Positions 5,459 through 41,352 of a DNA stretch of 64,000 nt are shown one piece after another. The translations under genes were made by a program, and so were the position numbers. Position 1 is the stretch's first letter. Every line of letters starts with the position of its first letter. Where the stretch lies: IMG/VR virus record IMGVR_UViG_3300031111_000236; one strand, 5' to 3'. The notes under the pieces were generated by a model that saw only the letters and a list, made by a program, of their open reading frames with translations, had not been told where the DNA came from and ran no database searches. The DNA comes from an uncultured virus (IMG/VR IMGVR_UViG_3300031111_000236) (Duplodnaviria; Heunggongvirae; Uroviricota; Caudoviricetes).

Positions 5459-6355
5459 ATGAAGAGACTCATACTGACCATGACCGTACTTTTATTGATG
5501 ACACTATCTGCCACGATGGGATGTCTGAGTATACCTGGGGTGGACGATGGCGACACCAGGACATCTAACTTCCTTATCAACGTGAACTCGAACTACAACA
5601 TCCGTCCTGGGGTCAATGACATCCTCATCGAGGTCAGGACAGTGAGCAACATACAGAAGGTAGACATCAACTTGGTCCCTGTCGCTTTGGTTGGTAACAG
5701 CGTCCAGAACAGTCAATCTCATACCTTGTACAAGTACCTTCAGGACGTTGAGCTACCGCAAGATATCATTCTGAGAGTGGACGCAAGCGACTACGACTTC
5801 CTCTACGGTAAGTTCCTGGTTCAGGTCATCGGTGAGCGGAAGGTCATAAAGGAAGAGAAGGAGTTCACCGTGCAGTTGAACTCAATGTCTGAGGACCTCT
5901 TGAGGCTTACAGAGTTTGACCCGCAGGTAAGAGTGAGTGTGGACGCACCAGCCGCTATCTACCCAGATACGGTCACAAGCAGGGTGCAAGTAGGCAACAC
6001 CAATAGTAACTCGGTGTCGGTCACATACACTATGGAACCTCTGGCCTACTACGAGATAGATATCTCGGAGAATGATGGTATCTATCCGCTGAAGACTGCA
6101 TCTTCAGGCGTTCTTAAGTTTGGTTTCGAGAGCATAAATGTTCACTCTTACTCAGAGTCTCTCCCGTCTACCTCTGGCAAGCCAGTTCGCAAGCTACAAA
6201 TAGTGGTGGAAGACTTCACGGACAAACCAGTGTATGCTTACGTTAAGCTCACCGTGACAGTCAACGGCAATGACCTGGTTACCCACTATATGTTGATAGG
6301 TAACTGGAAGCTCCCTCAGACTGTCTCAAACGTTAAGATAGGTGGGGTTGCGTAA
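5459..6355 (+). CDS. Putative lipoprotein
   Basis: Signal peptide ending ...SATMGC (lipobox-like); GAGGTG SD. Confidence 0.7.
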   Translation: MKRLILTMTVLLLMTLSATMGCLSIPGVDDGDTRTSNFLINVNSNYNIRPGVNDILIEVRTVSNIQKVDINLVPVALVGNSVQNSQSHTLYKYLQDVELPQDIILRVDASDYDFLYGKFLVQVIGERKVIKEEKEFTVQLNSMSEDLLRLTEFDPQVRVSVDAPAAIYPDTVTSRVQVGNTNSNSVSVTYTMEPLAYYEIDISENDGIYPLKTASSGVLKFGFESINVHSYSESLPSTSGKPVRKLQIVVEDFTDKPVYAYVKLTVTVNGNDLVTHYMLIGNWKLPQTVSNVKIGGVA

Positions 6356-7869
6356 TGACCCGAAAAGGGTGGACCCAAGACTCCGTAAGGCACGGTCTCG
6401 CATCGAGGGGTATCCCATCGTTCGGGTACAAGGGTCCAGATTTCGTCGAGTTCAAAGATAGGTACGACGAACCAGAGAAGGACTACATCACTCTCCTGAA
6501 TCTCATGGAGAACCCCAAGCCCATTGAGGATAGCAACTACAAGCTCCAGCTCTCGCAACACCTCGCTTGGACCGATGCGGCAAGAGACAATCAAGAGCGC
6601 ATCAAAGACATGGACGTACAACCTGATTTTCTGTTGGATATGACACAAGCGATGTATCTCAATCCTAACCTCACAGCCAACCTCTTGTACGCTCTTATGA
6701 ACGGCAAGATGGGGAATCTGGCTAACAATGACAGTCTTCGAGAGGCCGTGATTATATCCATTATGAACAACGACAAGAACAGCGTGAAGCAGAACTACTT
6801 CGGGGTGCTCAATAGGCTCACACCAGATGAGCGATGGCTACTGAGAGACATCTATGCCAGGAAGCTCAGAGATGTTGACCATCTCGACATGGACGATACC
6901 TTCGCTAAGGAGGTATTGTGTTTGTTCCAGGGTCTGTCTGACGACCAGATAAAACGTCTCTGGGGGGCCATGAAACCCAAGATACTTGTTGGCAACCCGA
7001 GCTTTACCGCCAAGGAGATGGTAAGCAAGCTCGAACGTGCCTTGCGTGTCATGCCTCTGGTGGATGTTTACATAGGGTCGTCGAAACTCATAGGCGACCC
7101 ACATGGATACTTCTACCCGAAGAACGTAGTCATACCAGCGGAGGATACCAACCTCTTGGTGGACCTCTTTAGGTGGGCAAAGATAGAGGACTTCAAGGGT
7201 ACGTCACTTCCAGAGGAAACAGCCAAGGAGCACAGGAGGAATGTTCACGACAACTTCAGAAAGGCACTTTACGCTCTCAATATTGACTGGAATAAACTCC
7301 TGACTAACGATATCAGGTATCACACTATCACCAAGTCGCCTGGGAAGTGGGGTGTGAGAAATATTGACAGTAAGGAGCGAAAGATAAACGCAGACAACAA
7401 AGAACTCCTACAAACAATCAAACTTCTCTTCTCGACTGATGTGGACCGCCTTGAAAATGAGTGGGGTCCACCAGCTCACTATCTCCCACCAGAGCTGAAT
7501 ATGCACATCTCACTTTTGCAGGATACCAGGAAGAGTTACACCAACAGGAACCAGAGTAAGTCTATCTTCAATTCTATCAGCTCTGATTTTGCGAATGTTA
7601 AGAGGCTCAGCACCTGGCTCTACGATATGGGCATATCTTTCGCCGACCTTACCAAAGGGCAACAAAAGCAGTATGCTAAGCTGTACTCTAAGACGGTCAC
7701 GAGGTTGCTCAAGCCATACGTGAAGAGGTATGGCCCCTATGATGACAACGATAAAATTTACTTCAATGGCGTGGATGATAAGGATATAGCGGCCTATCTC
7801 AAGGACCCTATCAAGAACGAACCTTATCACTTTTTTACTGTCAACGAGCGCAGAAGAGAAGGTAAGTAG
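6355..7869 (+). CDS. Leader-tagged PDFLLD-family paralogue (long form)
   Basis: GWTQDSVRHGLASRGIPSFGY leader; QPDFLLD, NDSLREA, LTPDER motifs. Confidence 0.85.
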   Translation: MTRKGWTQDSVRHGLASRGIPSFGYKGPDFVEFKDRYDEPEKDYITLLNLMENPKPIEDSNYKLQLSQHLAWTDAARDNQERIKDMDVQPDFLLDMTQAMYLNPNLTANLLYALMNGKMGNLANNDSLREAVIISIMNNDKNSVKQNYFGVLNRLTPDERWLLRDIYARKLRDVDHLDMDDTFAKEVLCLFQGLSDDQIKRLWGAMKPKILVGNPSFTAKEMVSKLERALRVMPLVDVYIGSSKLIGDPHGYFYPKNVVIPAEDTNLLVDLFRWAKIEDFKGTSLPEETAKEHRRNVHDNFRKALYALNIDWNKLLTNDIRYHTITKSPGKWGVRNIDSKERKINADNKELLQTIKLLFSTDVDRLENEWGPPAHYLPPELNMHISLLQDTRKSYTNRNQSKSIFNSISSDFANVKRLSTWLYDMGISFADLTKGQQKQYAKLYSKTVTRLLKPYVKRYGPYDDNDKIYFNGVDDKDIAAYLKDPIKNEPYHFFTVNERRREGK

Positions 7870-7874
7870 GGACT

Positions 7875-8172
7875 CTCATGAATATGTTGGAGATAGAGAG
7901 CACTGACGGGCGAAGGCTCTGTCTCTGGCGTTGTGATGAGAATACAATGATACGCTTCCTTGGTCACATGAGCATTGAAGAAGGTGTTGCGCTCTAACCC
8001 AAGTCTTTTTATATCTCGTACTCAGTCGTGGTATCATCGGGAAAGTGCCCATTGCGATATCGGGAGGGCACAGCCATGACCCCTGGCGGGGAAGGGGCAT
8101 GGAAGTCGTCGATGATACGTGGAGAGGAAGGGAGTGCGCATTACCCAATCTCCACGTATCAGGGCGCAACCC
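7875..8172. ncRNA. Candidate structured RNA(s) in an intergenic gap
   Basis: Several helices, including a perfect 13-bp TGATACGTGGAGA/TCTCCACGTATCA; TATA-like box at 8006-8014. Confidence 0.45.
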
Positions 8173-10521: not shown

Positions 10522-10525
10522 CGTA

Positions 10526-11666: not shown

Positions 11667-11700
11667 CTTGATATCACCACTACCAAGATTGAACCTGAGA

Positions 11701-11742
11701 GTATATATACCCCTCCAGGAAGGGGTCGGTCCTGAAGACAAT
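11701..11742 (-). promoter_or_regulatory. ATTGTCTTC box plus TATA promoter
   Basis: ATTGTCTTC (11742-11734), 24 nt, then TATATATA. Confidence 0.75.
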
Positions 11743-11820
11743 GTACAACTCTCGCCCTGATGAATATATATAAGTGTTTCTCTGAAACGTTATATAAAGG
11801 CATGATACTCATAGACGTAT

Positions 11821-12738
11821 ATGTCGTGGCCATGCAATCCCTCTCGCCACTCCCTCTCAGCCAGGGGTATCCCGAGTCAGTCATCGTTCGGTTACAAGCC
11901 AGACAGTGTTAAGAATAATATCTGGAACGGTAACAGCCTTACCAATGGTGAGATTCTGACTTTCTTGGAGCACCCAGAGAAGGTTGAGGCTGTTATCGGC
12001 CCTGCCCCTCTTGAGTTGCCTACCCTTTTGATGTCGAAGAAGAGTATGCCTACGAAAAAGGGTATCGAGAGTATGGAGAATTTTGCGGCCATGTATGGCA
12101 AGAGTCTCAAGACTTCCGAGGTGAAGCCAGACATATTTCTCGACCTGATAGCAAACAGTCGGCACGGTCTAAATCATGTATTGTATTATCTTTCTAACGG
12201 TGACCCCGAGGTCATACGCCAGAACCAGAGTCTGAGAGAGGCAATAATGGTGTACATACTGGCGAATCTTCAGAATCGGAGCTTCTGGGAGAGGAGGGAC
12301 TACCTTTATATCAATACTCTATCTGCGGAGGAGAAGTACATAATCGTGCCCAAGCTCTTTGATAACTTTGATGCGGCTGAGTACGTTGGCGACAAGTACA
12401 ACGACCTTTTCAAACTAACGCTGGTGGGAACCAATGACAAGGAGTACGCACTCTTGCGCCCTATGTTCGATAAGTACGGTAAGATTTATAATCTCAAGCC
12501 AGTGCTGAGCGATAAATTCGCAGAGCATCATAGCAAGACGAAATACATCTTCCACAGGGGGTTCTCGGGTCCTACAGACGTAGTTAAAGCTGACTTTGTA
12601 TCTACTGGTGATGGGGAGCCTTATTTCACTGCACCGAGAGACCTTTTATGGAATCATCATACGCACGTGAACATGAGACAGCTACCCCCTCAGATTAAGG
12701 CTGAGCTGGAGAAGGAGTGGCAGGAGTCAGATAAATGA
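11821..12738 (+). CDS. Leader-tagged PDFLLD-family paralogue
   Basis: MSWPCNPSRHSLSARGIPSQSSFGYKP; KPDIFLD; NQSLREA; leaderless transcript after TTATATAA. Confidence 0.85.
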   Translation: MSWPCNPSRHSLSARGIPSQSSFGYKPDSVKNNIWNGNSLTNGEILTFLEHPEKVEAVIGPAPLELPTLLMSKKSMPTKKGIESMENFAAMYGKSLKTSEVKPDIFLDLIANSRHGLNHVLYYLSNGDPEVIRQNQSLREAIMVYILANLQNRSFWERRDYLYINTLSAEEKYIIVPKLFDNFDAAEYVGDKYNDLFKLTLVGTNDKEYALLRPMFDKYGKIYNLKPVLSDKFAEHHSKTKYIFHRGFSGPTDVVKADFVSTGDGEPYFTAPRDLLWNHHTHVNMRQLPPQIKAELEKEWQESDK

Positions 12739-13736
12739 CATGGGACAGTGAGAGTATGAGGCACGGCCTCTGTCGTAGAGGCATCTCAAACGCACGGTCC
12801 TTCGGGTATCGTCCAAACTTTGTCCTTGTGAGAGTGCCTGGTGAGAGTCATGAGATGAGTAACAGCCAGCTATCTAAGTTCTTGACTGACCCAGAGGCTG
12901 TAGAAGGTATAGAGAACAAGTACCTGTCGATACCAGCCATAGGTCACACACAGGAATCAGCGGTCACGGACAAGAGCATAGAAAAGATGCAAGACTTTGA
13001 GAAGAACTATTGGGGTAAGCTCAAGGACTCAGATATAGAGCCAGATTTCTTTCTTGACCTTTACGGTATGGAGGAGTATCGTGGTCTGAGCTATGTGCTC
13101 TACTACATATCTAATGGTAACGCTGACAAGCTAAGGGAGCATGAGAGTATTCGTTCTGCTATTATTGTCTACATGATGACCAACGCAGACAGTAAACTCT
13201 TCTGGGAACGTGGTGACTACGAGTACATAGCGGTGCTCACGCCTCAAGAAAAAGCGATTCTCATACCCAAGCTCTTGAAGAGTGTTCGTAGTGTCGGTGA
13301 ACTGCATGGTATGTTCAGATGGGAGTCTATGGTGAACAACATATTCATGCTTTCTACCGCTGGTCTTGATGACTCTAACTATAAGCTCATCAAGCACTTC
13401 TTCGAGAAATTCGCAGAGGATAACCCAGATATGATGGAGTATAGTGACCAGTTATTTGGGAAGGCAGACTATCCGCAGAATATCGAGCTGATGGACAAGT
13501 ATCACGACAAGACCAAGGTCATCTACTGGAAGTATTATAACGATGAGTTCAAGAGAGAGCGTGTAGGTTACAAGGTGGTTGCTGACACTGACGACATCGA
13601 GTTGTACAAGGAGATGAACCTTTTCGGTGCACCGAGCAATCTCAGAGGTTGGACCGAGAACCACTTCAATGATGAACAGGCCCCCAGGCTCGTGTGGCGT
13701 GAGATATCCGAGCCTAACTTCAGGAGGAAGCTCTGA
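12735..13736 (+). CDS. Leader-tagged PDFLLD-family paralogue
   Basis: MTWDSESMRHGLCRRGISNARSFGYRP; EPDFFLD. Confidence 0.85.
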   Translation: MTWDSESMRHGLCRRGISNARSFGYRPNFVLVRVPGESHEMSNSQLSKFLTDPEAVEGIENKYLSIPAIGHTQESAVTDKSIEKMQDFEKNYWGKLKDSDIEPDFFLDLYGMEEYRGLSYVLYYISNGNADKLREHESIRSAIIVYMMTNADSKLFWERGDYEYIAVLTPQEKAILIPKLLKSVRSVGELHGMFRWESMVNNIFMLSTAGLDDSNYKLIKHFFEKFAEDNPDMMEYSDQLFGKADYPQNIELMDKYHDKTKVIYWKYYNDEFKRERVGYKVVADTDDIELYKEMNLFGAPSNLRGWTENHFNDEQAPRLVWREISEPNFRRKL

Positions 13737-14734
13737 TGTCCTGGGATAAGGAACCCGCTCGCCACTCTCTGTCATCAAGAGGTATAGGGCACGCCAAGTC
13801 GTTTGCGCTCAAGCCGAACATGGTGCGACTCGCTATGAAGAAGGAGGATGTCAAGGCTGGAAACCAGGCCGACCTTCTGAGGTTTGCTACTAACCCCGAG
13901 AGTTATGAGTCTCGCTACAGCCAGGACAAACCTCTCTGGTTCAAATGGAACCCTAAGAAGGCCAACAACTACAGGAAGCAACAGAACGACAGGTTCAGAA
14001 GTGCGAAGTTCGAACCAGACTTCCTATTGGATATGTTCGAGCCAAACGAGAAAGAAAGGTATGGCTCTGGCGGCGACCTCTTGTACCAGTTGACTGCTGG
14101 TGACTCTGTTGAGTTCTTGAGGAACCAGTCACTGAGAGATGCGGTTATTGTCCACCTACTCGCCAACAGTGATAAAAACCACTTCTGGTGGAATCAGGAT
14201 TGGGCCTACATAGGTATGCTGTACAAGCACGAGCGACTCGCTGTGATTGACAAGATGCTCAAGGGTCTCGTAAAACAAGAGCCGAGGTTGGCTTTTCTGT
14301 ATCTTGAGAAGTTCTATGCCGCCGCTCTCTGTGGTCTCTACAAGGAGGGCGACCTGATACGTAAGAAATTCCAAGCCGCTGGTAAGACCCTACCCGATAT
14401 GGAGGTCAAGAGTGGCGGTATGTGGGGCAACCCACAAGGTTACTGGATGTCAGTAGTGAACAATGATGATAGCGTTTACTACAAAGAGCGTGACAGACTC
14501 AAGGTTATGATAGGTCACCCTGACTCCATCTGGGGTGCGGACGTTAACATCATACCGACTATTCACTTCACTGGCAAGACATACTATGAACTCATGCTTG
14601 CGATACACGGGGGTCATGAAGGAGTTCATGACTACATCGAGGAGATGAAAGACAAGATACATCGGAGAGGGTGGTTCTTTCCAGTACAGGAGATGCCTAT
14701 GGACATGAGACGTGCCTTGGAGGTGAAAGAGTGA
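13736..14734 (+). CDS. Leader-tagged PDFLLD-family paralogue
   Basis: MSWDKEPARHSLSSRGIGHAKSFALKP; EPDFLLD. Confidence 0.85.
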   Translation: MSWDKEPARHSLSSRGIGHAKSFALKPNMVRLAMKKEDVKAGNQADLLRFATNPESYESRYSQDKPLWFKWNPKKANNYRKQQNDRFRSAKFEPDFLLDMFEPNEKERYGSGGDLLYQLTAGDSVEFLRNQSLRDAVIVHLLANSDKNHFWWNQDWAYIGMLYKHERLAVIDKMLKGLVKQEPRLAFLYLEKFYAAALCGLYKEGDLIRKKFQAAGKTLPDMEVKSGGMWGNPQGYWMSVVNNDDSVYYKERDRLKVMIGHPDSIWGADVNIIPTIHFTGKTYYELMLAIHGGHEGVHDYIEEMKDKIHRRGWFFPVQEMPMDMRRALEVKE

Positions 14735-15768
14735 CCTGGCATAGGGACCCTCTTGGGCATGGTCTTACGTCTCGTGGTGTTCAAATTAAAAGGTCGTTTG
14801 GGTACAAGCCCGATTTCATACACCAGAATCACGTTAAGCTCGATGGCAAGGATGTCAAACCTTTACCCCCTCGTGAGATGTACGAGTTGATGACCGACCC
14901 CGAGTCTGTCGAAAATCGGTATAGGGTCGTATTCCTTTCCACCAATTTCGAGCGTGGTCCTGGCCTCCCACGAACAGCGGAGGCGAAAGAAGAGATGGCG
15001 AAGTTTGCTCGCAAGTACGGCGAGGCCATGAAGACTGTAGATGTCGAACCAGATTTCCTGCTTGATACCATAAAGGTAAAAGGCTTGGGGAACGAAGGTG
15101 GGGCGGCCCCTGTACTGTACTTTGTCAGCAATGGCAATCCAGATATCATAGCGTCGAACGAAAGTCTTCGAACGGCTATCATAGTTTACTTCCTATCGGA
15201 GGCTGACGACCAGTACTTCTGGCGTGATAAGAACTTTGCGTATCTGAGTGCCTTGTCACCAGAGGAGCGCATGGTAGTAGTCCCAAGACTGATTAGGAAA
15301 CTCAGAGACATAGGTGCTAATGACCCTCGGGTATATAGTAGACATCTCAAGGACTTCTTCATGGTTTCAACATCTGGCATTGACGATGCGAGCTATAAGG
15401 TCATACGCAAGGATTTCGTCGGCTTGGTCGTGGAGCTTGAGAACGACGAAGACTTCATGAAGCGCAAAAGTTCAGATGCTCTTATCAAGAACATGACCAA
15501 CCTCTTGGAGACAATGGACTACTCGCACTCCAAGACCAAGACTATTTTCTACAGGAGATACGCTAACAGGATTCGCTTCAGTACTGTAGTCGATACTGAT
15601 GATGAGAAAGACCGCAAGTACATGAGAGATGCCTACCCAATCTTACTCACTAACGAGTCACAGGTTTATCAGGCTCTGCATGGTGATATTACCGAGTGGC
15701 AGAAAGTAGCTCATATCAACAGGGACCAGTTGCCGAAACTGGTAGAGAAAAATCTCTTCGAGGAGTAG
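14731..15768 (+). CDS. Leader-tagged PDFLLD-family paralogue
   Basis: GTG start at 14731 (GGAGGTGA SD, GTGA overlap): MTWHRDPLGHGLTSRGVQIKRSFGYKP; EPDFLLD. Confidence 0.85.
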   Translation: MTWHRDPLGHGLTSRGVQIKRSFGYKPDFIHQNHVKLDGKDVKPLPPREMYELMTDPESVENRYRVVFLSTNFERGPGLPRTAEAKEEMAKFARKYGEAMKTVDVEPDFLLDTIKVKGLGNEGGAAPVLYFVSNGNPDIIASNESLRTAIIVYFLSEADDQYFWRDKNFAYLSALSPEERMVVVPRLIRKLRDIGANDPRVYSRHLKDFFMVSTSGIDDASYKVIRKDFVGLVVELENDEDFMKRKSSDALIKNMTNLLETMDYSHSKTKTIFYRRYANRIRFSTVVDTDDEKDRKYMRDAYPILLTNESQVYQALHGDITEWQKVAHINRDQLPKLVEKNLFEE

Positions 15769-15790: not shown

Positions 15791-16756
15791 ATGACATGGG
15801 ATAGGGAGCCAGCACGACACTCGCTTTCGAGGCGTAGGATACCGAACCAGGCTTTCGGTTATAAGCCAAACTTTGTTCACTATGCCCCAAACATATTCAG
15901 TAGGGACGACAAAGAACGAAGGATGCTATCTACTCAAGATGTTTACACACTGATGACGGACCCGACTACTATCGAGAGCAAGTACACTGAGGTAGCTGTA
16001 CCCATGCGGATAGGTGCGGACCTTCGTGACAAGTTCATGACCATATTCAAGGAGTCGTATCGGAAGAAGATGGTAGACGCTGATATTCAACCCGACTTCC
16101 TCTTGGATACATATCAGCGTAATGCAGGGACTCCCACAGGTGGAGGTGCATCTCCGTTCCTCTATTTCATATCAGGCGGCAACGGTAACGTGCTTCGTAA
16201 GAACGAGAGTATAAGGGAGGCCATCCTGGTCTATATGCTCGCATACGGCGATAAAGGGTTCTTCTGGGACAACGGGGAATACATCTACATCGGTGTCCTG
16301 TCACCGCAAGAGAAGATGGTAGTTTTACCCAAGCTCCTGGACATGATGAAGAGGTACGTTGACACCACAGGGAAGTTAGACACGTACCAATATCACATAG
16401 CTAAGCTCTTATCTCATACGATGGCTGGTGTCAACGATAAGGATTATGCTGTTCTCAGGAAGATGTTTTCAGACTTCATGAGTCCTATGACGAACAGTAA
16501 AGTACCGCCTTTCATGAAGGCCGCCAGGTATTATGAGTGGGAAGTTCAAGGTATGGACGAACATCACAAGCGCACTAAGGTGGTCTACTGGATACCCCTA
16601 AAGAAGGACGGTATAGACAGCACAGTAGTACCCAATACCAACGACGAAGAGATATACGAGAGTATGTTGTCCTGGTATTCGGCCAGTGATATTGATTTTT
16701 ACTCTCATTTAAACAAGAACCAGATACCAAAACTTTCAAGGAGAGGGTTAGAGTGA
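15791..16756 (+). CDS. Leader-tagged PDFLLD-family paralogue
   Basis: MTWDREPARHSLSRRRIPNQAFGYKP; QPDFLLD. Confidence 0.85.
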   Translation: MTWDREPARHSLSRRRIPNQAFGYKPNFVHYAPNIFSRDDKERRMLSTQDVYTLMTDPTTIESKYTEVAVPMRIGADLRDKFMTIFKESYRKKMVDADIQPDFLLDTYQRNAGTPTGGGASPFLYFISGGNGNVLRKNESIREAILVYMLAYGDKGFFWDNGEYIYIGVLSPQEKMVVLPKLLDMMKRYVDTTGKLDTYQYHIAKLLSHTMAGVNDKDYAVLRKMFSDFMSPMTNSKVPPFMKAARYYEWEVQGMDEHHKRTKVVYWIPLKKDGIDSTVVPNTNDEEIYESMLSWYSASDIDFYSHLNKNQIPKLSRRGLE

Positions 16757-17625
16757 CGTGGACAAAAGACCAGGAACGTCACAGGATGGCAAGCAGGTCA
16801 ATAAGAAGCAAGATGGGTACAAGGTCTTTACCCCCTCTTGACCCGAGGGTATTCGCTGTGCAGGTAATCGAAAAGCAGACAAGTAGCCAAGAGATGCTGA
16901 AGAGTGACGAGTTACCTGTTCCTGCTCCTGTTAATGAGTATATCCACACAGTCATGACCAACTCGGGAATGGACGCTGAAATGAACGAGGACGGGACTAT
17001 CACCGCCTATCTCACGGAGGAACAGTACAGTGAGCTGAAGACGTTGCTCACAGCTCTCGGAGTGTCGGCTCTTTCCGTAGCGAGCGTAGTTTCGAGAGAG
17101 CGCAAAGCGAGAGGTCGTCAGAAGACTATCCAAACCAGGACAGAGAGAGCACGTCTTACATCGAAACAGATGCAGAACTTCGAGAAGAGGCTACAAATGA
17201 CAGCTAAGCAGGAGAGGTTGACCAAGGCGCAAATACAGAAGGTTATTCGCCAGACTCGTATCATGAATAAGAACGCACAGCTCACTACGGAGGCCGCCGC
17301 TAACGCCGCCAAGAGAGGACATCTGACAGTCAAGGAGGCCCGTATAGTCAGTGGTCAGATACAGAAGGCTGGTGTGACATCTACAAAGGTGTCTCAGGGT
17401 GCGAGAAACAAGGTCCATATCAACACAGCTCGGATGACAAATGCTGAGCGAGCAAGAGTACAGAAGAGGCTCACTAACGTGGCATGGATGAAACATCGTA
17501 GAGGTGTTAGGAGAAGGCGTGGTGTTGCTGTCGGGTTGATACCTGGTGACATGAATCTCGCTGACGTAGTATATCTACCTATTAACCAGGTAGTCACAGC
17601 AACTGGTACGAGGGCTATCGGTTAG
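16753..17625 (+). CDS. Leader-tagged protein with a very basic C-terminal half
   Basis: MTWTKDQERHRMASRSI leader; short hydrophobic segment followed by an R/K/Q/T-rich region. Confidence 0.8.
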   Translation: MTWTKDQERHRMASRSIRSKMGTRSLPPLDPRVFAVQVIEKQTSSQEMLKSDELPVPAPVNEYIHTVMTNSGMDAEMNEDGTITAYLTEEQYSELKTLLTALGVSALSVASVVSRERKARGRQKTIQTRTERARLTSKQMQNFEKRLQMTAKQERLTKAQIQKVIRQTRIMNKNAQLTTEAAANAAKRGHLTVKEARIVSGQIQKAGVTSTKVSQGARNKVHINTARMTNAERARVQKRLTNVAWMKHRRGVRRRRGVAVGLIPGDMNLADVVYLPINQVVTATGTRAIG

Positions 17626-18404: not shown

Positions 18405-19280
18405 ATGGCCTGGGAGTCCGATAGAGAGGGTCATCGACTGGCCCGTGCAGGTATAGGTAGAGCGATACCCCGCTCCAGGACTCCTGCTTTTTCTTCTTCG
18501 CATGGTTACACCAAGAAGTACTGGCACATAGTCGTGAATGACAAGGCCAAATGTGTACCAGATGCTATGGTGGATAAGCAAGGCAATCGCAGTACTTATC
18601 TTTCCAAAGACCCAGGCCAAAAGGGGGGTACTGTGATTGTCTTGTGCAAGCTCAAGGAGGACGGTCCTACCAAGAAACAGAAGGTCCTGGTCGAGGACAA
18701 AGATTGGGATATGAAAAACGGTAGGCTCGTGCCAACCACAGCCCGTGGTCGTAGACAGGCCGATGATTTCAAAAGTCAGGGTATGTGGCCTCTTACAACC
18801 GATAAGTACGTCATACACGGGCCAGGATTTTCTCTCCCTCTTGACACAGCCTCGAAGATAACGGAGCTTTCTGACAAGAACCAAGAGCTATCCTTCGAGC
18901 GGCAGGAAACGTTCATAGAGCTACAGAAGCTCAAGTCGAGGATATTCGGGCTACAGACTGCCATTGGCGAGCTAAACCGTAACAAGAGCGACATGAGAGC
19001 GAACAGGGCACTTGAGTGGGTCACCTACATAGATGAGACCTTTGTCTCCCTGCGTTTGCAGTCGGAGGAAGTAGAGAAGTATCTATCGGAGGACGTTAAC
19101 CCCGATATGAAACACTCAATGGACGAGCTACAGAACGAGATGGACGATGTTGACCTCAAGCTGACGAACAGCGGAGTTCTCTCCAAGTTGGATGTGAAGT
19201 TAAGGTCTCTCGGGAAATCGAAACTGGATAAGGAGGCCAAAGTCCTCTTGGACCAGTATCTCGATATAGTGGGGTCTTGA
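18405..19280 (+). CDS. Leader-tagged protein with a C-terminal coiled coil
   Basis: MAWESDREGHRLARAGI leader; heptad-rich C-terminus. Confidence 0.8.
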   Translation: MAWESDREGHRLARAGIGRAIPRSRTPAFSSSHGYTKKYWHIVVNDKAKCVPDAMVDKQGNRSTYLSKDPGQKGGTVIVLCKLKEDGPTKKQKVLVEDKDWDMKNGRLVPTTARGRRQADDFKSQGMWPLTTDKYVIHGPGFSLPLDTASKITELSDKNQELSFERQETFIELQKLKSRIFGLQTAIGELNRNKSDMRANRALEWVTYIDETFVSLRLQSEEVEKYLSEDVNPDMKHSMDELQNEMDDVDLKLTNSGVLSKLDVKLRSLGKSKLDKEAKVLLDQYLDIVGS

Positions 19281-27033: not shown

Positions 27034-27990
27034 ATGCCGTGGCCACAGGAATCTAATCGCCATAGTCTGGCATCACTCTCAGTACCTAACACGAGGTCGT
27101 TCTCCTACAGGCCAGACTTTGTTACCTACAATTCGAACACCTACCCTGTGGGAGTTCTCAACTCTGATGATATATTCAGATTCATGAAGGACCCAGAGTC
27201 TGTGGAATCGGCTTACGACACAGACGTATTCATACCAGCGGCTGGTATCGGACCTAAAGAGAGCGAATACATGGAAAGTCTGGAGGCCATGTGGGATTTC
27301 TGGAATAAGTACGGTGACCAGATGGATTCAGTCGAGGTAGAGCCAGACTTTCTGCTTGATGCGCCTATCGGTGGTGCTTCACACCTTCTATACTTCATTA
27401 GCAATGGCAACCCAGATGTTCTTGCTCATAGCCAGAGCATCAGAGCGGCTATCATTGTCTACCTCTTGAGGCACGCTGGTGAGCCAGAGTTCTGGGAGGA
27501 ACACGAGTACCAGTATGTAGCTGTCCTGTCACCAAGTGAGAAGCTACTCATTGCACCGAAGCTCCTGGAGGGTTACGAGACAGCTACAGCCCAGGAGAAG
27601 TGGGCAAGAGCACTCGACAACGCTATCGGTGTTTGCTTCTCTTACATGGTCGCTGGCCTTGACAATAATTACTATGAAATGCTCAGAACTAAGTTCGATA
27701 GGGTCTTTCTAACTGTTTTCAATGACCGTAATATAGTACCACTGTACGACTTCCATAGACGCAAGATGAACAAATGGCATACCAAGACCAAAGTGGCCTT
27801 CTGGCGTTACTACGATGAAAGTGATATGTCCGACAAGGTAGACTCGCAAGTCGTACCCTACGTTTGGACTGACCACGATTACAATCTCTTGAGGCAGGAT
27901 TACTGTAATGTCAGTGAGATACATAGTAGCAAAATCATACACGTCAACAAGGACCAGTTCAGTGATGTCACGAGGGGGTATTTGAGATGA
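27034..27990 (+). CDS. Leader-tagged PDFLLD-family paralogue
   Basis: MPWPQESNRHSLASLSVPNTRSFSYRP; EPDFLLD. Confidence 0.85.
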   Translation: MPWPQESNRHSLASLSVPNTRSFSYRPDFVTYNSNTYPVGVLNSDDIFRFMKDPESVESAYDTDVFIPAAGIGPKESEYMESLEAMWDFWNKYGDQMDSVEVEPDFLLDAPIGGASHLLYFISNGNPDVLAHSQSIRAAIIVYLLRHAGEPEFWEEHEYQYVAVLSPSEKLLIAPKLLEGYETATAQEKWARALDNAIGVCFSYMVAGLDNNYYEMLRTKFDRVFLTVFNDRNIVPLYDFHRRKMNKWHTKTKVAFWRYYDESDMSDKVDSQVVPYVWTDHDYNLLRQDYCNVSEIHSSKIIHVNKDQFSDVTRGYLR

Positions 27991-29429
27991 CGTGGCCAAA
28001 AAATCCGAACAGGCACAGTCTGAGTTCGAGAGGCATACCGAATCGAGCTTTCGGTATAGCCAATAAGGACCTTATCAAGATGGTAGGGTACAACAAGACT
28101 GTTGATGAGGAAAAAGAGGCGAGAGCCCTGTTTCAGCTCATGGTAGACCCGAGTACGGCTGAAAGACAGTTCGATAGGGTTTATGTCGATACTGATGACG
28201 GATACATCAGACAGTTTAGTCGTGCTGTCGAGGAGATTGGTAGAGACAGAGATATACAGCCAGACTTCTTGTTCGATGCGAGAGACTTTATCTGGGATAA
28301 CTATCGGTATGAGAGGTTGAACGAACTCCTCTATATCATACATCAAGGTCACTCTCCAGCGGCTCTGCATAGTGATTCTTTCAGGGCGAGCTTAGCGGCT
28401 TTCATGTTGTCTATGCTCCAGGATGATGAGGTAGGCCATATTGACTGGTCTGTTGCTATCCAACTGATGTCACCAGAGGAGAAGAAAATCGTCTTCCCTA
28501 AGTATATCGAGAGGTTCGGCCCCTGGTATACAAAAGAAATGGTAGCGTTCATAAGCGATGTTCCTGAATCCCAGACTGACTTCTACATGAGACAGCTTGA
28601 CCGCCTCTTGGTGAATGATACACGATACGACAAGAAGCGTAGAGATGAAATACTTGCTATCAAAAAGCTCACAAAGAAGCTGGTTATGAACTATACCACT
28701 GCATATTACAAGCAAAAACTTGAGTCTTACATCAGACCAAAGAAGGTCTTGAAGAACAAGAAGGAGGCAGAGCTGTACTTTGAGCTAACTGAGTCGATGC
28801 ACCCCAGAGTGCTTAATAGGTTCGAAGAGCATCAGGATACTCACGTCTACTATATGAGGAATCACATGAAGAAGTCTCTGAGGGCGGTTCAGAAGCTCAT
28901 AGACCGTTTTATCGACTTCCAGATAAAAGGGAGCAACCTTTACTGTGCTGTCGATAGTGGCAACAGTGGTCGAGGACCTCTTGCCGACTACTTACAGCAT
29001 GGCTTTGCTATAGAGGAAAAATCGAAGACGGATAAAAGACCAGTACCGTGGCACATAGCTCACAATATCGGTAAGACCAGTGTTCATATAGAAAAGGATG
29101 AGAACTCATTGTACAGTACGAAGTCGAGTACTAAGGTGGAGATTGAGCCGTACTGCTATAATGGTGAGCTGACCAATTTCACACTACCTAATATCGACAA
29201 GTTCAGTGATATCTTCTTCGGTAGGAAATGGAGTGGCATACGAGACCCTGTTGACAAGAGCGAGGTTGAGGCGGCTTATGAGTACTATATCCTATCCTGG
29301 GTAAAAAAGGCCAGGAAGATGGAAATATCAGCAAGCTCAAGCCTGGTCGAGACACAACCAGAGGGTTACGTCTTGAAGTACCAGGGTGATGACGGGTATC
29401 TATGGCTCCCAGGCGAGGAGGGGGAATAA
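27987..29429 (+). CDS. Leader-tagged PDFLLD-family paralogue (long form)
   Basis: MTWPKNPNRHSLSSRGIPNRAFGI; QPDFLFD. Confidence 0.85.
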   Translation: MTWPKNPNRHSLSSRGIPNRAFGIANKDLIKMVGYNKTVDEEKEARALFQLMVDPSTAERQFDRVYVDTDDGYIRQFSRAVEEIGRDRDIQPDFLFDARDFIWDNYRYERLNELLYIIHQGHSPAALHSDSFRASLAAFMLSMLQDDEVGHIDWSVAIQLMSPEEKKIVFPKYIERFGPWYTKEMVAFISDVPESQTDFYMRQLDRLLVNDTRYDKKRRDEILAIKKLTKKLVMNYTTAYYKQKLESYIRPKKVLKNKKEAELYFELTESMHPRVLNRFEEHQDTHVYYMRNHMKKSLRAVQKLIDRFIDFQIKGSNLYCAVDSGNSGRGPLADYLQHGFAIEEKSKTDKRPVPWHIAHNIGKTSVHIEKDENSLYSTKSSTKVEIEPYCYNGELTNFTLPNIDKFSDIFFGRKWSGIRDPVDKSEVEAAYEYYILSWVKKARKMEISASSSLVETQPEGYVLKYQGDDGYLWLPGEEGE

Positions 29430-30827
29430 TTGGGATGGGATAACGAGCCAGCGAGACATTCCTTGTCCCGACTTGGTATAGACAATAGGGCCTTCGGTAT
29501 CAAAGGTCCCGACTTCGTGAAACCAGTAGATGGAGATAGGTTCTCAAGTGATGTAGACAGAGAACTAAACGCACAAGACCTTTGGAATCTGCTACAACAA
29601 CCGTCCACCGTTGAGAGGCAGAAAGATGTTATATACATCGGCACTGGTTGGGACGAAGCCTACACACGTAAAATGACTGAGATAAGAGGTGATACTCTAC
29701 CATCTATCGAGTTCGAACCCGACTTCCTGTTCGACGCTGAGGACTACATCCTTTATAATGAGACCAATCTCAACACCTACCTTGGTCAGATATGTGGTGG
29801 CGACTTCCAACAGCTTACCAATAACGACAGCTTCAGAGCCAGTTTGATGGCTTTCATGCTCACCATGTTTGAAAGTCCCGATAAGGGTAAGCAGGTTGAT
29901 TGGGCAATGTCCATTAGTCTTCTAAGACCATACGAGAAACGTATCCTCTTCCAGAAGTACTTGAAGATGATAGAAGATGACCTCTATCACTTGGAGCGCA
30001 ACAAATACAGAGAGGTTTTGGCCTTCTTCGCAGATGTGCCTAAAGAGTACCAAGCCCTTTACACCAGTCAATTAGACTTTCAGTTCCGTGACACTGATGA
30101 ATATCAGGAGGGGGAGCGTGAAAAAATCAAGGAAATCATGAAACTGGCCCCCAGACTTGATATAGGTGCAGTACAGCATGGTAGATGGTCTCTATTTCAG
30201 GTAAAGCCCAAGGAACCCCTCTTGAGGAAGAAGGACGCTGATATTTATTACCAGATACAGAACATAAGGGACCCAGAGTACTCTCTGCCTTACATGAGGA
30301 CCACTGAGAACTATATGAGGAGGTTCTCGAAGAAGAGTAAGGACGAGCTAAAGATATTCCTGCGTGAGCTTGTTACAGCACAGATACAAGCGGCGGAAAC
30401 CAAATGCAAATCCGAACACGGCGGTGATACCAAGGGTATTCAGGAATATGACAGGAAGTGTGGGAAGTTCTGGGGTGATATCGTAGAGAAGCCTCTGTTA
30501 TGCAATGCTACTGACAATCTGATGGAGCCAGCTTGGAGAAACAAGAGCGGTAAGAGCATGGATTTCTATGGTGGTTGTTCTTATTATGGTGGTGAGTTGG
30601 AGAGGGTTAGCATCCCGAGCATAGATGATTTCACAGACACTCTATTCTTACAGAAGTGGTCAGATACTAACAACGAGGACGACAAAAAGGACATGGAATA
30701 CTTCTACGAGTACTATGTGAGGACTTTCAGGAACAGGGCGAAAAATAGGAAGAAGTCGAAGTGGAGGTTCTATGTCAACAGCCAGCCAGATGGGTACGAA
30801 CTCCCGAGTGACCTGGAATCAGATTAG
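29430..30827 (+). CDS. Leader-tagged PDFLLD-family paralogue (long form)
   Basis: MGWDNEPARHSLSRLGIDNRAFGI; EPDFLFD; C-terminus aligns with the previous gene (Y.GEL...P.ID.F.D..F..KWS, QP.GY). Confidence 0.85.
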   Translation: MGWDNEPARHSLSRLGIDNRAFGIKGPDFVKPVDGDRFSSDVDRELNAQDLWNLLQQPSTVERQKDVIYIGTGWDEAYTRKMTEIRGDTLPSIEFEPDFLFDAEDYILYNETNLNTYLGQICGGDFQQLTNNDSFRASLMAFMLTMFESPDKGKQVDWAMSISLLRPYEKRILFQKYLKMIEDDLYHLERNKYREVLAFFADVPKEYQALYTSQLDFQFRDTDEYQEGEREKIKEIMKLAPRLDIGAVQHGRWSLFQVKPKEPLLRKKDADIYYQIQNIRDPEYSLPYMRTTENYMRRFSKKSKDELKIFLRELVTAQIQAAETKCKSEHGGDTKGIQEYDRKCGKFWGDIVEKPLLCNATDNLMEPAWRNKSGKSMDFYGGCSYYGGELERVSIPSIDDFTDTLFLQKWSDTNNEDDKKDMEYFYEYYVRTFRNRAKNRKKSKWRFYVNSQPDGYELPSDLESD

Positions 30828-38648: not shown

Positions 38649-38650
38649 GT

Positions 38651-39541: not shown

Positions 39542-39571
39542 GCAGGGAAAGGGAATTGGGTAATCAGGAGC

Positions 39572-40591
39572 GTGTACAAAATGTCAGCCAAGATAAGGGA
39601 CCAGAAACGCAAGGAAGCCGAGAGTGATATAGAGGAGGCCGAAGAGTTCTATGTCGATGAACAATCTCTGAACTCCAAGGTGACCCTCATAGACCAGGAA
39701 ATAGGCTCAGTCCAGGACAAGCACAAACAGCGTCTTGAAGAGCTACAGGCACTCTTGGATGCTGAGAACGCCGCCATAGAGAAGGAAGTGTCGCACCTCC
39801 GCCAGATGCGAGTTGGTATCAAGAGACAGCTCTCTGAACAGTCCAAGAGAGACAAAAAAGGGTCAGAGGCCAGGTCGCAGATAGCGTATATCAACTTTCT
39901 CGATGCTGTACAAGCCCTTGTTGACGACGGGATGTTCATCTACTCCGTGAGAGCGACCAGGTATGTTGAGCGGATACGGGGCAAGACCAGAGCTAACAAG
40001 GAGGGGATAAAAGAGCACATCCGTGATACCTACAACGCTCAGGTCGGTGGAGACATATCAAGGACCTACACAGAGAACCTCGCAATGACCATCAGGCTTG
40101 CGAGAGGGTTCACCGTAGTGGTATCATCCAATATGAACAAGAACGACGTGAGCGTCCGCTTAAACGACTACAGCGGCAAAGTCCCGAGGGGGACGAAGAT
40201 AGTGCTCAGGTCGGGTATCAACATGGTGAAGAACGAAGGTGCAAGCTACGCTGAGATGCACTGCTCCAAGTGTGGTCACCATGTCGAGGCGGCCTACTAC
40301 TGCCCCAAGTGCCACGAGAGAGACATCGACAAGGAGTACTCGTGGGACGAGGTAGAGTTCAAGGAAACAGTTGACGGTAAGGAGATGGAGATATCTCACT
40401 GGACCGAATCTGGGTGGCACTACGAGTGCTCTTCCTGTGGGCACGTCAACGGTATCTACCAGGAGCCTCACTGCCCCCACAAGGACGTGCTCGTGCCCGA
40501 GGACGAGGATATTAAGCAGGTCACTCTAACCTGGGATGGTGACCTCCTGACATGGACTAAAACTGAAGAAACTATCAAGGCGGGGAAGTAA
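39572..40591 (+). CDS. Coiled-coil protein with inserted Zn ribbons
   Basis: CSKC, CPKC, CSSC, CPH; resembles the upstream gene. Confidence 0.75.
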   Translation: MYKMSAKIRDQKRKEAESDIEEAEEFYVDEQSLNSKVTLIDQEIGSVQDKHKQRLEELQALLDAENAAIEKEVSHLRQMRVGIKRQLSEQSKRDKKGSEARSQIAYINFLDAVQALVDDGMFIYSVRATRYVERIRGKTRANKEGIKEHIRDTYNAQVGGDISRTYTENLAMTIRLARGFTVVVSSNMNKNDVSVRLNDYSGKVPRGTKIVLRSGINMVKNEGASYAEMHCSKCGHHVEAAYYCPKCHERDIDKEYSWDEVEFKETVDGKEMEISHWTESGWHYECSSCGHVNGIYQEPHCPHKDVLVPEDEDIKQVTLTWDGDLLTWTKTEETIKAGK

Positions 40592-40665
40592 TGCCCCGCT
40601 ACCTTTTTCTTATATAAACCTTTTTGGTCACATTTATATGCCCCTTGCATGATGGTATACCACCT

Positions 40666-41352
40666 ATGAGTGATAAACCGCAAGGGTGGAAAGGTCAGTC
40701 CGAACGCCATGCCCTGGCCAGTCATGCAATACCAAACAAGCCTTCTTCTCGTACTAAGAGGTATGCGAGGAACGTCAAGTACAACGTCAAGAGGGGCCTT
40801 ATCAAGACCCTTCGTGACCCCGCTGGTTTTTTGTTCAGACCAGTGATGGAACTTGCTGACCTGCGTAATGCCAACAGTGAGGTCTTCAAGAGACTCGACA
40901 GAGAGCATGAGATTAAGACCAAGCTCAAGGGTATGAAGAGGCCGAAGATTGTTGCCAACGTGAACGAAAGTACCAAGCATCTGAAGAGGGCTGAAGGTGC
41001 GGCTCGTGGTGTAGACAATATGCTATCGAGGGCGCAGAAGTCCTATGATGCTGTCAAGTTGACTGACGGCCTGAACACCCTCTTGTACGAGCTTGAAATG
41101 GCCAAGAACAACATCGCTAAGGCGGCCAAGGCCACACCAGCCAACATGACGAAGCTCAAGACATCTCTTACTATGTTCAAGGACGACCTCGACCTCTTGA
41201 GGGACAAGACTGAGGACATCATAGGGGAGATGGACGTGGAATACGTTGGTGACAGGGTTGTAATCAGCCCAGAGGCAAGACAGAACATCAAGCGAGAGGT
41301 CAATAAGATAGCACGCTCAATAGGTGTCTTGGACGACATATACATGGATTAG
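40666..41352 (+). CDS. Leader-tagged helical/coiled-coil protein
   Basis: ATG 40666 downstream of TTTATAT: MSDKPQGWKGQSERHALASHAIPNK. Confidence 0.8.
   Translation: MSDKPQGWKGQSERHALASHAIPNKPSSRTKRYARNVKYNVKRGLIKTLRDPAGFLFRPVMELADLRNANSEVFKRLDREHEIKTKLKGMKRPKIVANVNESTKHLKRAEGAARGVDNMLSRAQKSYDAVKLTDGLNTLLYELEMAKNNIAKAAKATPANMTKLKTSLTMFKDDLDLLRDKTEDIIGEMDVEYVGDRVVISPEARQNIKREVNKIARSIGVLDDIYMD

What the first reader, a model, noticed from the sequence alone, without database searches (positions are those of the whole stretch)
6355..41352. A shared ~20-aa N-terminal leader on 15 proteins: candidate virion-packaging or sorting tag system
Seen: 15 ORFs begin with W-x5-[RG]H-x-[LM]-[ASTC]-x2-[GSAR]-[IV] at invariant spacing. 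They are 6355 WTQDSVRHGLASRGI, 11821 WPCNPSRHSLSARGI, 12735 WDSESMRHGLCRRGI, 13736 WDKEPARHSLSSRGI, 14731 WHRDPLGHGLTSRGV, 15791 WDREPARHSLSRRRI, 16753 WTKDQERHRMASRSI, 18405 WESDREGHRLARAGI, 19282 WRGQSMRHALARAGI, 21179 WEGEPERHKMAREGI, 21664 FQNEPLRHGLSRLGI, 27034 WPQESNRHSLASLSV, 27987 WPKNPNRHSLSSRGI, 29430 WDNEPARHSLSRLGI and 40666 WKGQSERHALASHAI. Codons differ between copies, so selection is at the protein level. Six carriers have bodies unrelated to each other or to the nine paralogues, and no replication or secreted protein has the motif. Established: T4 internal proteins use a short N-terminal capsid-targeting sequence, and phiKZ-like head proteins have cleaved propeptides. Inference: this is a portable address label that loads diverse cargo into a particle or compartment.
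Basis: partly seen in the sequence, partly recalled or inferred. Interest (0 to 1): 0.93.

Follow-up and report, generated by a model that had tools for sequence, protein, structure and literature searches.

The report
Shared N-terminal tag on virus proteins
A large virus-like DNA element, probably of archaea, puts the same short basic 17-20-residue peptide at the start of at least 15 otherwise unrelated soluble proteins, and the same tag recurs by the dozen in other uncultured virus genomes, so it looks like a common address or docking label whose reader is still unknown.

Summary
Exactly 15 plus-strand ORFs start with W-x5-[RG]H-x-[LM]; shuffles give about 0.02. Nine share a helical body with no known fold. 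Six are unrelated, and one of these is a lipocalin.

The tag is not private to this window. Its wider consensus is [GATS]-W-[KRH]-[GN]-E-[SP]-x-R-H-S-L-A-x-[KR]-G-[IV]-[KR]-[TS]. It heads 25 genes of a complete 74-kb IMG/VR virus genome and 13 genes of a second viral contig. It also forms arrays in five genome bins and occurs in at least 161 metagenome stretches. It lies 2-12 residues after the start codon in 200 of 221 ORFs.

Bodies fall into 167 BLAST clusters among 232 carriers. Synonymous codon turnover shows selection on the peptide itself. Carriers are soluble, and the tag is predicted to be one short helix that does not dock on its own body. No Pfam, NCBIfam, PDB or literature match exists.

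A portable docking tag is well supported. Loading into virus particles is the best guess but is untested, and no capsid gene was found. This scan had not noted the motif before.

The parts
6355..7869 (+). Carrier 1 (504 aa). Leader core W at 6370. Body belongs to the nine-member helical paralogue family.
11821..12738 (+). Carrier 2 (305 aa), paralogue family. Leader M-S-W at the start.
12735..13736 (+). Carrier 3 (333 aa), paralogue family. This is the protein that was modelled: leader residues 1-24 have pLDDT below 50, and the body is an alpha-helical repeat plus a beta hairpin.
13736..14734 (+). Carrier 4 (332 aa), paralogue family.
14731..15768 (+). Carrier 5 (345 aa from a GTG start preceded by GGAGG), paralogue family.
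15791..16756 (+). Carrier 6 (321 aa), paralogue family.
16753..17625 (+). Carrier 7 (290 aa, GTG start). Unrelated basic body (net charge +27) with one borderline hydrophobic segment at 95-113.
18405..19280 (+). Carrier 8 (291 aa). Unrelated body with no family match.
19282..20436 (+). Carrier 9 (384 aa). Unrelated body; W at residue 7.
21179..21667 (+). Carrier 10 (162 aa, TTG start). Leader followed directly by a Lipocalin_2 domain covering residues 20-157.
   Evidence: E 8.7e-42; phrog_2809
21664..22308 (+). Carrier 11 (214 aa, GTG start). F replaces W. Unrelated body.
27034..27990 (+). Carrier 12 (318 aa), paralogue family.
27987..29429 (+). Carrier 13 (480 aa), paralogue family, long form.
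29430..30827 (+). Carrier 14 (465 aa, TTG start), paralogue family, long form.
40666..41352 (+). Carrier 15 (228 aa). Unrelated basic body. It lies apart from the arrays, inside the replication module.

Best explanation
The leader is a portable peptide module of 17-20 residues. It consists of a Trp, then one short basic alpha-helix (E-[SP]-x-R-H-S-L-A-x-[KR]) closed by Gly-[Ile/Val], then a non-conserved linker. A group of uncultured, probably archaeal, virus-like elements fuses it to the start of a very large number of unrelated soluble proteins.

It works as a common docking label. The helix does not pack on its own protein but binds one shared partner, so every tagged protein is brought to the same place. 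The most likely place is the assembling virus particle. In that case the tagged proteins (nucleotidyltransferases, an ADP-ribosyltransferase, small DNA binders, lipocalins and many unknowns) travel with the genome into the next cell, as phage T4 internal proteins do through their capsid targeting sequence.

Shown: the existence, position, portability, protein-level selection, solubility and wide recurrence of the tag.

Inferred: that it docks to one partner, and that the destination is the particle.
For: Observation and chance:
- 15 of 15 leaders confirmed against about 0.02 expected by chance.

Selection on the peptide:
- In the 25 leaders of G001, invariant Ser positions use both TCN and AGY codons, Leu uses TTR and CTT, and Arg uses AGA and CGA.
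- Codon pairs in G001: identical 2317, synonymous 1706, non-synonymous 477. In the window: 292, 430 and 853.

Recurrence:
- 87 representatives at E <= 1e-3 among 1.84 billion. Of these, 76 are not from the window, and in 70 of the 76 the match starts within the first 17 residues.
- 25 matches in the complete 74,350-bp IMG/VR genome G001 and 13 in G002.
- 11, 22, 13, 26 and 3 matches in five genome bins, clustered on a few contigs.
- At least 161 metagenome stretches.
- W lies 2-12 residues after the nearest in-frame ATG in 200 of 221 ORFs.

Portability:
- 232 carriers fall into 167 BLAST clusters, 141 of them singletons.
- Bodies with a family include Lipocalin_2 (window and L116), NTP_transf_2, DUF5661, DUF3140/DUF6321, DUF7447, LAGLIDADG plus HTH, HTH_24, Cupin_2, ART-PolyVal and rubrerythrin.
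- The leader is the only similarity between the window and G001 or G002, apart from three weak pairs (phmmer E 7e-4 to 5e-3). G001 and G002 share one carrier body at E 1e-13.

Free peptide:
- Leader residues 1-24 have pLDDT below 50 in a model with pTM 0.81.
- The leader alone, with 99 sequences, gives a helix at residues 8-17 with mean pLDDT 82.

Soluble cargo:
- A hydrophobic segment occurs in 1 of 15 window carriers and 1 of 92 others. No signal-bearing protein has the tag.

Gene position and precedent:
- Tagged genes sit in arrays between genes for large secreted proteins and away from replication genes, both in the window and in G001.
- T4 internal proteins are described as diverse defence proteins that share only a capsid targeting sequence (PMC3012670, passages read).
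Against: - No capsid, portal, terminase, scaffold or head protease was recognised in the window or in the complete G001. The particle itself is therefore hypothetical, and these elements could be plasmids.
- No conserved non-tagged protein is shared by the window, G001 and G002 that could be the receptor. YdjM and metallopeptidase genes do not co-occur consistently.
- A tag this conserved across elements with no other similarity may point to a host partner or to nucleic acid rather than to a fast-evolving capsid.
- The motif is sometimes internal, C-terminal or duplicated.
- No cleavage site is evident after it.
- About a quarter of all genes would be an unusually large cargo set.
Confidence: 0.4

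Rival explanations
1. The leader is a small nucleic-acid-binding arm. The basic helix, with its invariant Arg-His and flanking Lys/Arg, tethers many different proteins to the element's DNA or to RNA. Tethering to DNA could itself carry them into a particle, but it need not.
For: - The tag and the linker after it are rich in Lys and Arg, and Arg, His and Gly are invariant in 99 of 99 aligned leaders.
- The first 30 residues carry a net positive charge in 13 of 15 window carriers.
- The tag works at either end or in tandem, as simple binding units do.
- Its extreme conservation across unrelated elements fits an unchanging ligand.
- Some bodies are DNA binders or nucleic-acid enzymes.
Against: - No match to any known DNA- or RNA-binding motif in Pfam, NCBIfam or PDB.
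- The invariant Trp, Glu and Leu are not what a pure charge-driven arm needs.
- The window's leaders are much less basic than those of G001.
- Binding was not testable here.
Confidence: 0.2
2. The leader docks tagged proteins onto a conserved host machine, such as a chaperone, protease, ribosome or replication hub. Many viral effectors then use one entry point, as poxvirus ankyrin proteins share a PRANC/F-box that binds host Skp1 (that comparison is recalled, not tested).
For: - The motif is far more conserved than any other protein of these elements, whose GC ranges from 35% to 48%.
- Bodies look like effectors: ART-PolyVal, nucleotidyltransferases, small DNA binders.
- The peptide is exposed.
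Against: - No host is known and no host partner is identified.
- Nothing similar exists in solved complexes.
- The genes cluster with secreted-protein genes rather than with early or replication genes.
Confidence: 0.15
3. The leader is a non-classical export or translocation signal. It sends soluble proteins out of the cell, or into a partner cell if the hosts are DPANN-type symbionts, through a dedicated translocon. This would resemble the PEXEL or RxLR host-targeting motifs of eukaryotic parasites (recalled).
For: - It is an N-terminal motif on hundreds of unrelated bodies.
- In the lipocalin it occupies the place where bacterial lipocalins carry a lipoprotein signal peptide (the signal peptide is recalled).
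- Arrays sit next to genes for large secreted and membrane proteins.
- Some contigs are binned with Woesearchaeota.
Against: - There is no hydrophobic core, and the first Arg of the apparent twin-Arg is not conserved.
- No translocon candidate is shared between the elements.
- Internal and C-terminal copies exist.
Confidence: 0.1
4. There is no tag. The carriers are one old paralogous family whose N-terminus is simply its best-conserved part.
For: Nine of the 15 window carriers are indeed paralogues, and tandem arrays suggest duplication.
Against: - The body profile scores the other six at E >= 0.19.
- Bodies belong to unrelated Pfam folds: lipocalin beta-barrel, Pol-beta nucleotidyltransferase, cupin, LAGLIDADG, ART.
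- There are 141 singleton clusters among 232 carriers.
Confidence: 0.03
5. The conservation lies in the DNA or RNA, for example a shared translation-initiation region, a recombination site or a repeat, and the peptide is a by-product.
For: The motif sits at gene starts in tightly packed, probably co-translated arrays.
Against: - Synonymous sites are scrambled while the residues stay fixed. Changes include TCN/AGY Ser switches, which need two or more base changes.
- The motif also occurs inside and at the end of ORFs.
Confidence: 0.02

Closest known systems
Capsid targeting sequence (CTS) of phage T4 internal proteins (IPI-III, Alt and others)
   Same: A short N-terminal peptide is the only thing shared by a diverse set of soluble proteins, many of them anti-defence proteins, and it brings them to one destination (PMC3012670, passages read).
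   Different: - The T4 CTS works with a known scaffolding core and is removed by the head protease (recalled). Here no capsid, scaffold or protease is recognised.
- The motif is unrelated in sequence to anything in Pfam or PDB.
- It tags 15-25 genes per genome or more.
- It is conserved across elements with no other similarity.
- It sometimes lies internally or at the C-terminus.
Encapsulation peptides of bacterial microcompartments and cargo-loading peptides of encapsulins
   Same: A short terminal peptide (for microcompartments an amphipathic helix of about 18 residues), joined by a loose linker to unrelated enzymes, docks them to a shell and can sit at either end of the protein (recalled). 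Here a single helix plus linker is predicted, and it is occasionally C-terminal.
   Different: No BMC or encapsulin shell family appeared in the Pfam scans of the window, G001 or G002. Those peptides are not conserved in sequence to this degree, and these carriers lie in virus-like elements.
PEXEL (Plasmodium) and RxLR (oomycete) host-targeting motifs
   Same: A short conserved N-terminal motif on hundreds of effectors with unrelated bodies (recalled).
   Different: Those motifs follow a classical signal peptide and act in eukaryotic secretion. These carriers have no hydrophobic segment.
MuF-anchored polyvalent proteins of phages
   Same: Effector domains, including ART-PolyVal, are thought to be carried in the particle and delivered to the host (recalled). 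One leader carrier has an ART-PolyVal body.
   Different: There the delivery module is a large MuF domain and the effectors are fused into one giant protein. Here a peptide of about 20 residues tags many separate small proteins, and no MuF hit was seen.

Membership tests
T4-type capsid targeting sequence system | A short N-terminal peptide shared by otherwise unrelated soluble proteins | tested here: met
T4-type capsid targeting sequence system | A head module (HK97-type capsid, scaffold core, prohead protease) in the same genome | tested here: not met
   No such Pfam or PHROGs family in the window (64 of about 185 kb) or in the complete G001. Divergent structural proteins could escape these profiles.
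T4-type capsid targeting sequence system | Tag removed by proteolysis; tagged proteins present in particles | not testable with these tools
   Needs particle proteomics and N-terminal mapping.
Encapsulin or microcompartment cargo peptide | A shell protein gene (encapsulin or BMC domain) near the cargo genes | tested here: not met
   No such family among the Pfam hits of the window, G001 or G002 proteins.
Encapsulin or microcompartment cargo peptide | A short terminal helix or peptide joined to the body by a non-conserved linker | tested here: met
   Helix at residues 8-17 of the 30-residue leader. Conservation collapses after position 21. The leader is not docked on its body.
Sec, Tat or class III (pilin-type) signal peptides | A hydrophobic core after a charged N-region; for Tat, an invariant twin arginine | tested here: not met
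   No hydrophobic segment at the N-terminus of any of the 15 carriers. The residue before the invariant Arg is Arg in only 47 of 99.
Any curated protein family covering the leader (Pfam-A, NCBIfam, PHROGs) or any solved structure | A significant profile or sequence match over the leader | tested here: not met
   best E 0.16, unrelated human proteins; 0 hits
Lipocalin_2 (PF08212), for carrier 21179-21667 only | A full-length match above the curated cut-off | tested here: met
   E 8.7e-42, 143 bits against a cut-off of 24, profile positions 1-144 of 146, protein residues 20-157.

The most novel reading that the evidence does not exclude
A widespread, unrecognised group of archaeal viruses, possibly of DPANN-type hosts, uses one universal peptide of about 17 residues to mark a fifth to a quarter of its genes as cargo. 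The cargo is packed with the genome and delivered into the next cell. This would be a protein-delivery system on a scale not described for any virus of archaea. The tag is conserved more strictly than any structural or replication gene, so the tag itself could serve as the hallmark for finding these viruses.
Probability: 0.3. Interest if true: 0.9.

Novelty: new variant of a known kind. Interest (0 to 1): 0.8.

Why it matters
- Shared targeting peptides are known from T4, encapsulins and microcompartments. None is known for viruses of archaea, and none tags so large a share of a genome or stays fixed across genomes that share nothing else.
- The motif gives a simple sequence handle for finding a whole group of uncultured virus-like elements that lack recognisable capsid genes.
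- It defines a ready-made list of hundreds of probable effector or cargo proteins.
- It offers a testable 20-residue peptide for finding its reader, whether a capsid component, nucleic acid or host machine.
- If it is a loading tag, it could be used to pack foreign proteins into archaeal virus particles.

Tried and rejected
- Whole genome of the window: not held.
P0014 found nothing in metagenome contigs. The other roughly 120 kb, where structural genes might lie, was therefore not seen.
- The leader alignment A1 was too variable for the search for related loci, so I used degenerate DNA patterns instead. A pattern for the window's own subtype (…G-I-P-[NH]-x-[KR]-S-F-[GA]) found 0 stretches in viral contigs.
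- Homologues of paralogue 12735: only the protein itself among 5.8 billion clusters.
- Fold of the paralogue body: no Foldseek match at E <= 1e-3 in PDB or BFVD. The VIA wide search gave a best Z of 6.7 to armadillo/HEAT-type repeats, which is at the tool's stated noise level for helical proteins. The idea that the acidic helical bodies are receptors for the basic leader was dropped, because the monomer model did not dock its own leader and relatives such as G001 lack this family.
- ESM Atlas on P0026: no usable feature hit.
- Candidate reader or processing genes: YdjM is present in the window and G001 but is common in cellular genomes and absent from G002 and G005. The window's PhageMetallopep and G001's SprT-like protein are not detectably related, and PF18894 is absent from G001, G002, G005 and G006.
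- Complex prediction was not used. No candidate partner had enough prior support, and self-association of a strongly basic peptide seemed unlikely.
- tRNA scan of the window: 0 genes.
- Literature: motif strings occur only in unrelated human or clinical papers (639 papers with the 20 listed irrelevant, 7 papers, none relevant). DUF5661 appears in 0 papers. The searches on archaeal and DPANN viruses listed nothing on such a tag. The Borg preprint 10.1101/2024.11.05.622173 (outline, section 35 and term search read) does not mention it.

Full report
**Observation.** The window carries 15 plus-strand ORFs that begin with W-x5-[RG]H-x-[LM]-[ASTC]-x2-[GSAR]-[IV], with F for W in one.
- A six-frame regex finds exactly these 15 and nothing on the minus strand.
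- 200 shuffles of the DNA give a mean of 0.02 matches (max 1), and 500 shuffles of the plus-strand protein residues give none.
- A profile built from the 15 finds no further weak copy: the 15 score E <= 4e-12 and the next hit is at E 0.3.
- The W is residue 3 in 11 carriers and residue 6-8 in four.
- Most proposed starts, including the GTG and TTG ones, follow a GGAGG-like box or overlap the previous stop codon by 1-4 bases, so the genes form tightly coupled arrays.
- In 11 of 15, a second small box [KRQS]-[SA]-F-[GAS] follows a few residues later.

**Selection is on the peptide.**
- In the window, the invariant His uses CAC 8 times and CAT 7 times, Arg uses five codons and Leu four.
- In the relative G001, 25 leaders are almost identical as protein. 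Yet the two invariant Ser positions use both TCN and AGY codons, Leu uses TTA/TTG and CTT, and Arg uses AGA and CGA.
- Over all leader pairs in G001, 2317 codon pairs are identical, 1706 differ synonymously and 477 differ non-synonymously.
- A DNA- or RNA-level explanation is therefore excluded.

**Bodies in the window.**
- Nine carriers (6355, 11821, 12735, 13736, 14731, 15791, 27034, 27987, 29430) share a body (BLAST; alignment A2; body profile E <= 2e-67).
- The AlphaFold model of the 12735 protein is confident for the body (pTM 0.81, mean pLDDT 77). The body is an alpha-helical repeat with a beta hairpin. Residues 1-24, the leader, have pLDDT below 50 and do not dock on the body.
- No fold match reaches significance: none at E <= 1e-3 with Foldseek in PDB or BFVD, and the best VIA Z is 6.7 to armadillo/HEAT-like repeats, which is noise level for helical proteins.
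- The other six carriers match neither the body profile (E >= 0.19) nor each other (E >= 0.14).
- One of the six is a full Lipocalin_2 domain (E 8.7e-42) that starts at residue 20, right after the leader.
- 14 of 15 carriers have no hydrophobic segment.
- None of the window's proteins with an N-terminal hydrophobic segment carries the leader, and none of its replication proteins does.

**What the window is.**
- All long genes run on one strand.
- The window encodes a B-family DNA polymerase split into an exonuclease gene and a polymerase gene. It also encodes an RFC small-subunit-like clamp loader, an ERCC4 plus helix-hairpin-helix nuclease, a PD-(D/E)XK nuclease, SNF2 and other helicases, a putative phage metallopeptidase, a YdjM membrane protein, several secreted proteins and a clostripain-like peptidase.
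- The polymerase's only matches among 50,697 phage records are eight haloarchaeal tailed-virus records at about 22% identity and one Ochrobactrum phage.
- No capsid, portal, terminase or scaffold family was found.
- The window is part of a 184,795-bp contig. Eight further leader proteins sit on a contig of that same length but outside the window: P0014, P0021, P0024, P0030, P0036, P0077, P0088 and P0090. That makes at least 23 carriers. A related 158,244-bp contig exists.
- I could not fetch either contig.

**The tag elsewhere.**
- The leader profile, scored against 1.84 billion representatives, gives 87 proteins at E <= 1e-3, and 76 are not from the window. In 70 of those 76 the match starts within the first 17 residues.
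- Aligning 99 of them gives the consensus [GATS]-W-[KRH]-[GN]-E-[SP]-x-R-H-S-L-A-x-[KR]-G-[IV]-[KR]-[TS]. W, R, H and G are invariant, and conservation collapses after position 21.
- A degenerate DNA pattern found 17 stretches in IMG/VR, nearly all on two contigs.
- The profile then counted 25 matches in G001 (74,350 bp, direct terminal repeats, 100% complete by CheckV, GC 36%) and 13 in G002 (61 kb, 36% complete). It counted 0 and 1 in two other records that each had a single pattern hit.
- A stricter pattern found only 21 loci in one genome each of 185,579 species.
- In each of the five bins concerned, the profile then found arrays on a few contigs: Woesearchaeota 11, an uncultured euryarchaeote 22, an uncultured archaeon 13, a WOR-3 bin 26 on two contigs, and a Burkholderiales bin 3 on one 1.9-kb contig.
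- The four contigs I read from two of the archaeal bins (G005 and G007) hold small ORFs, giant secreted proteins, HNH nucleases, a Cas4-like nuclease and methylases, and no housekeeping genes.
- Over all these loci, 221 distinct motif-bearing ORFs place the W 2-12 residues after the nearest in-frame ATG in 200 cases, 22-73 residues after it in 7, and with no in-frame ATG in 14.

**Portability.**
- After removing 30 residues from the W, 232 carriers fall into 167 BLAST clusters, 141 of them singletons.
- Only 12 of 88 metagenome and bin carriers have any Pfam family at E <= 1e-3: NTP_transf_2 four times, a second Lipocalin_2, DUF5661, DUF3140/DUF6321, DUF5679, DUF4241, HTH_24, Cupin_2 and one weak CUX1_N.
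- Other carriers bear DUF7447, or LAGLIDADG plus HTH, ART-PolyVal or a rubrerythrin-like domain, and further nucleotidyltransferases and DUF5661.
- Only 1 of 92 has a hydrophobic segment.
- Between the window, G001 and G002, BLAST and phmmer find almost nothing but the leader. With leaders masked, four pairs remain at E <= 0.01. Only one is strong (a G001-G002 pair of carrier bodies, E 1e-13), and the best pair involving the window is at E 7e-4.

**Exceptions.**
- A minority of proteins carry the motif twice in tandem or at both ends: P0011, P0015, P0017, P0022, P0028, P0010 and P0035.
- One carries it at the C-terminus (G002 12731-13135) and one after a small N-terminal domain (G002 26853-27380).
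- Related elements also show sister motifs at gene starts: W-D-K-E-S-L-R-H-S-x-A-K-K-x-G-K-A-P-P-Y-R, and K-K-G-S-x-Q-x-R-H-x-R-H-S-K-K-G-K.

**Structure of the tag.** Folded alone with the 99-sequence alignment, the 30-residue leader gives one helix at residues 8-17 (E-S-x-R-H-S-L-A-x-x) ending at the invariant Gly. Mean pLDDT is 82 and reaches 92 over residues 11-20.

**What it is not.**
- No Pfam, NCBIfam or PHROGs family covers it.
- PDB sequence searches give nothing meaningful.
- It has no hydrophobic core, and the residue before the invariant Arg is Arg in only 47 of 99, so it is not a Sec, Tat or pilin-type signal.
- It is not one diverged family.

**Mechanism.**
- The data show a free, basic, single-helix peptide under strong purifying selection. 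It is joined by a variable linker to hundreds of unrelated soluble proteins in virus-like elements.
- The simplest reading is a docking label read by one common partner.
- I favour loading into the particle (confidence 0.4) for three reasons. The gene arrays lie among the secreted and large surface-type protein genes and away from replication genes, both in the window and in G001. The bodies look like effectors. And the T4 internal proteins are a close precedent, described as diverse defence proteins sharing only a capsid targeting sequence (PMC3012670, passages read).
- Against this, no particle genes are recognised and no reader is identified. A tag fixed across elements that share nothing else could equally point to nucleic acid (0.2) or a host machine (0.15). 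An export role (0.1) is weaker because there is no hydrophobic core or translocon.

**Novelty and limits.**
- Literature searches for the motif strings, for DUF5661 and for tags in archaeal or DPANN viruses found nothing relevant.
- The library lacks most subscription journals, and bioRxiv supplements were closed.
- Earlier notes of this scan hold analogous leaders in other phages but not this motif.
- Host, particle, cleavage and partner are all untested.
- About two thirds of the window's own contig was not seen.

Noticed in passing
window 45485-46903 and 47074-48810: The B-family DNA polymerase is split into two genes. The first holds a DNA_pol_B_exo1 hit and the second a DNA_pol_B hit, with a 170-bp gap between them. 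The second gene matches only haloarchaeal tailed viruses (about 22% identity) and one Ochrobactrum phage among phage records.
   Followed up: partly
window 42194-45488 and 52639-54315: An archaeal-style replication and repair module: an ERCC4 plus two helix-hairpin-helix nuclease, an RFC small-subunit-like AAA protein with a Rep_fac_C domain, a PD-(D/E)XK nuclease and an SNF2 helicase.
   Followed up: no
window 6355-30827 (nine genes): The nine-member paralogue family has a confident predicted helical-repeat fold (pTM 0.81) with no significant structural or sequence relative, and its only sequence relatives lie on two large contigs. Several of the bodies are strongly acidic, with net charge -12 to -17.
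   Followed up: partly
window 60191-62251: A clostripain-family (Peptidase_C11, E 2.6e-48) protein with an N-terminal hydrophobic segment, among a run of secreted or membrane proteins at 54.6-64 kb.
   Followed up: no
window 22680-23159; L018 6503-7069: A YdjM-family membrane hydrolase gene is present both in the window, just after a leader array, and in G001. It is not in G002 or G005, and it is common in cellular genomes.
   Followed up: partly
L023 5134-5535 and 6021-6338; L212 9218-9703 and 11666-11884; L209 9714-10154 and 10594-10941; L212 10256-10708: Two further shared N-terminal motifs occur in related elements: K-K-G-S-x-Q-x-R-H-x-R-H-S-K-K-G-K and W-D-K-E-S-L-R-H-S-x-A-K-K-x-G-K-A-P-P-Y-R. 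These elements may therefore use a small family of related tags.
   Followed up: no
L022-L025 (G002): G002 is rich in selfish elements. It has inteins in an XPB-like helicase and in a second protein, several NUMOD3/HNH and LAGLIDADG proteins and a TnpB-like gene. It also carries RlaP, an R2K ATP-grasp protein, an HpcH aldolase and an SIS-domain protein.
   Followed up: no
L018-L021 (G001), leaders: The G001-type leader reads S-R-R-H-S-L, which fits the recalled R-R-x-S-hydrophobic consensus of basophilic protein kinases. The Ser is not conserved in the window's leaders (G 4, S 6, R 2, A 2, K 1), so I did not pursue it.
   Followed up: no
window 1-2300 and 9900-11750: Two short stretches have reversed GC and AT skew and higher GC (0.52-0.55), and their longest ORFs lie on the minus strand. 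This contrasts with the otherwise one-stranded layout.
   Followed up: no
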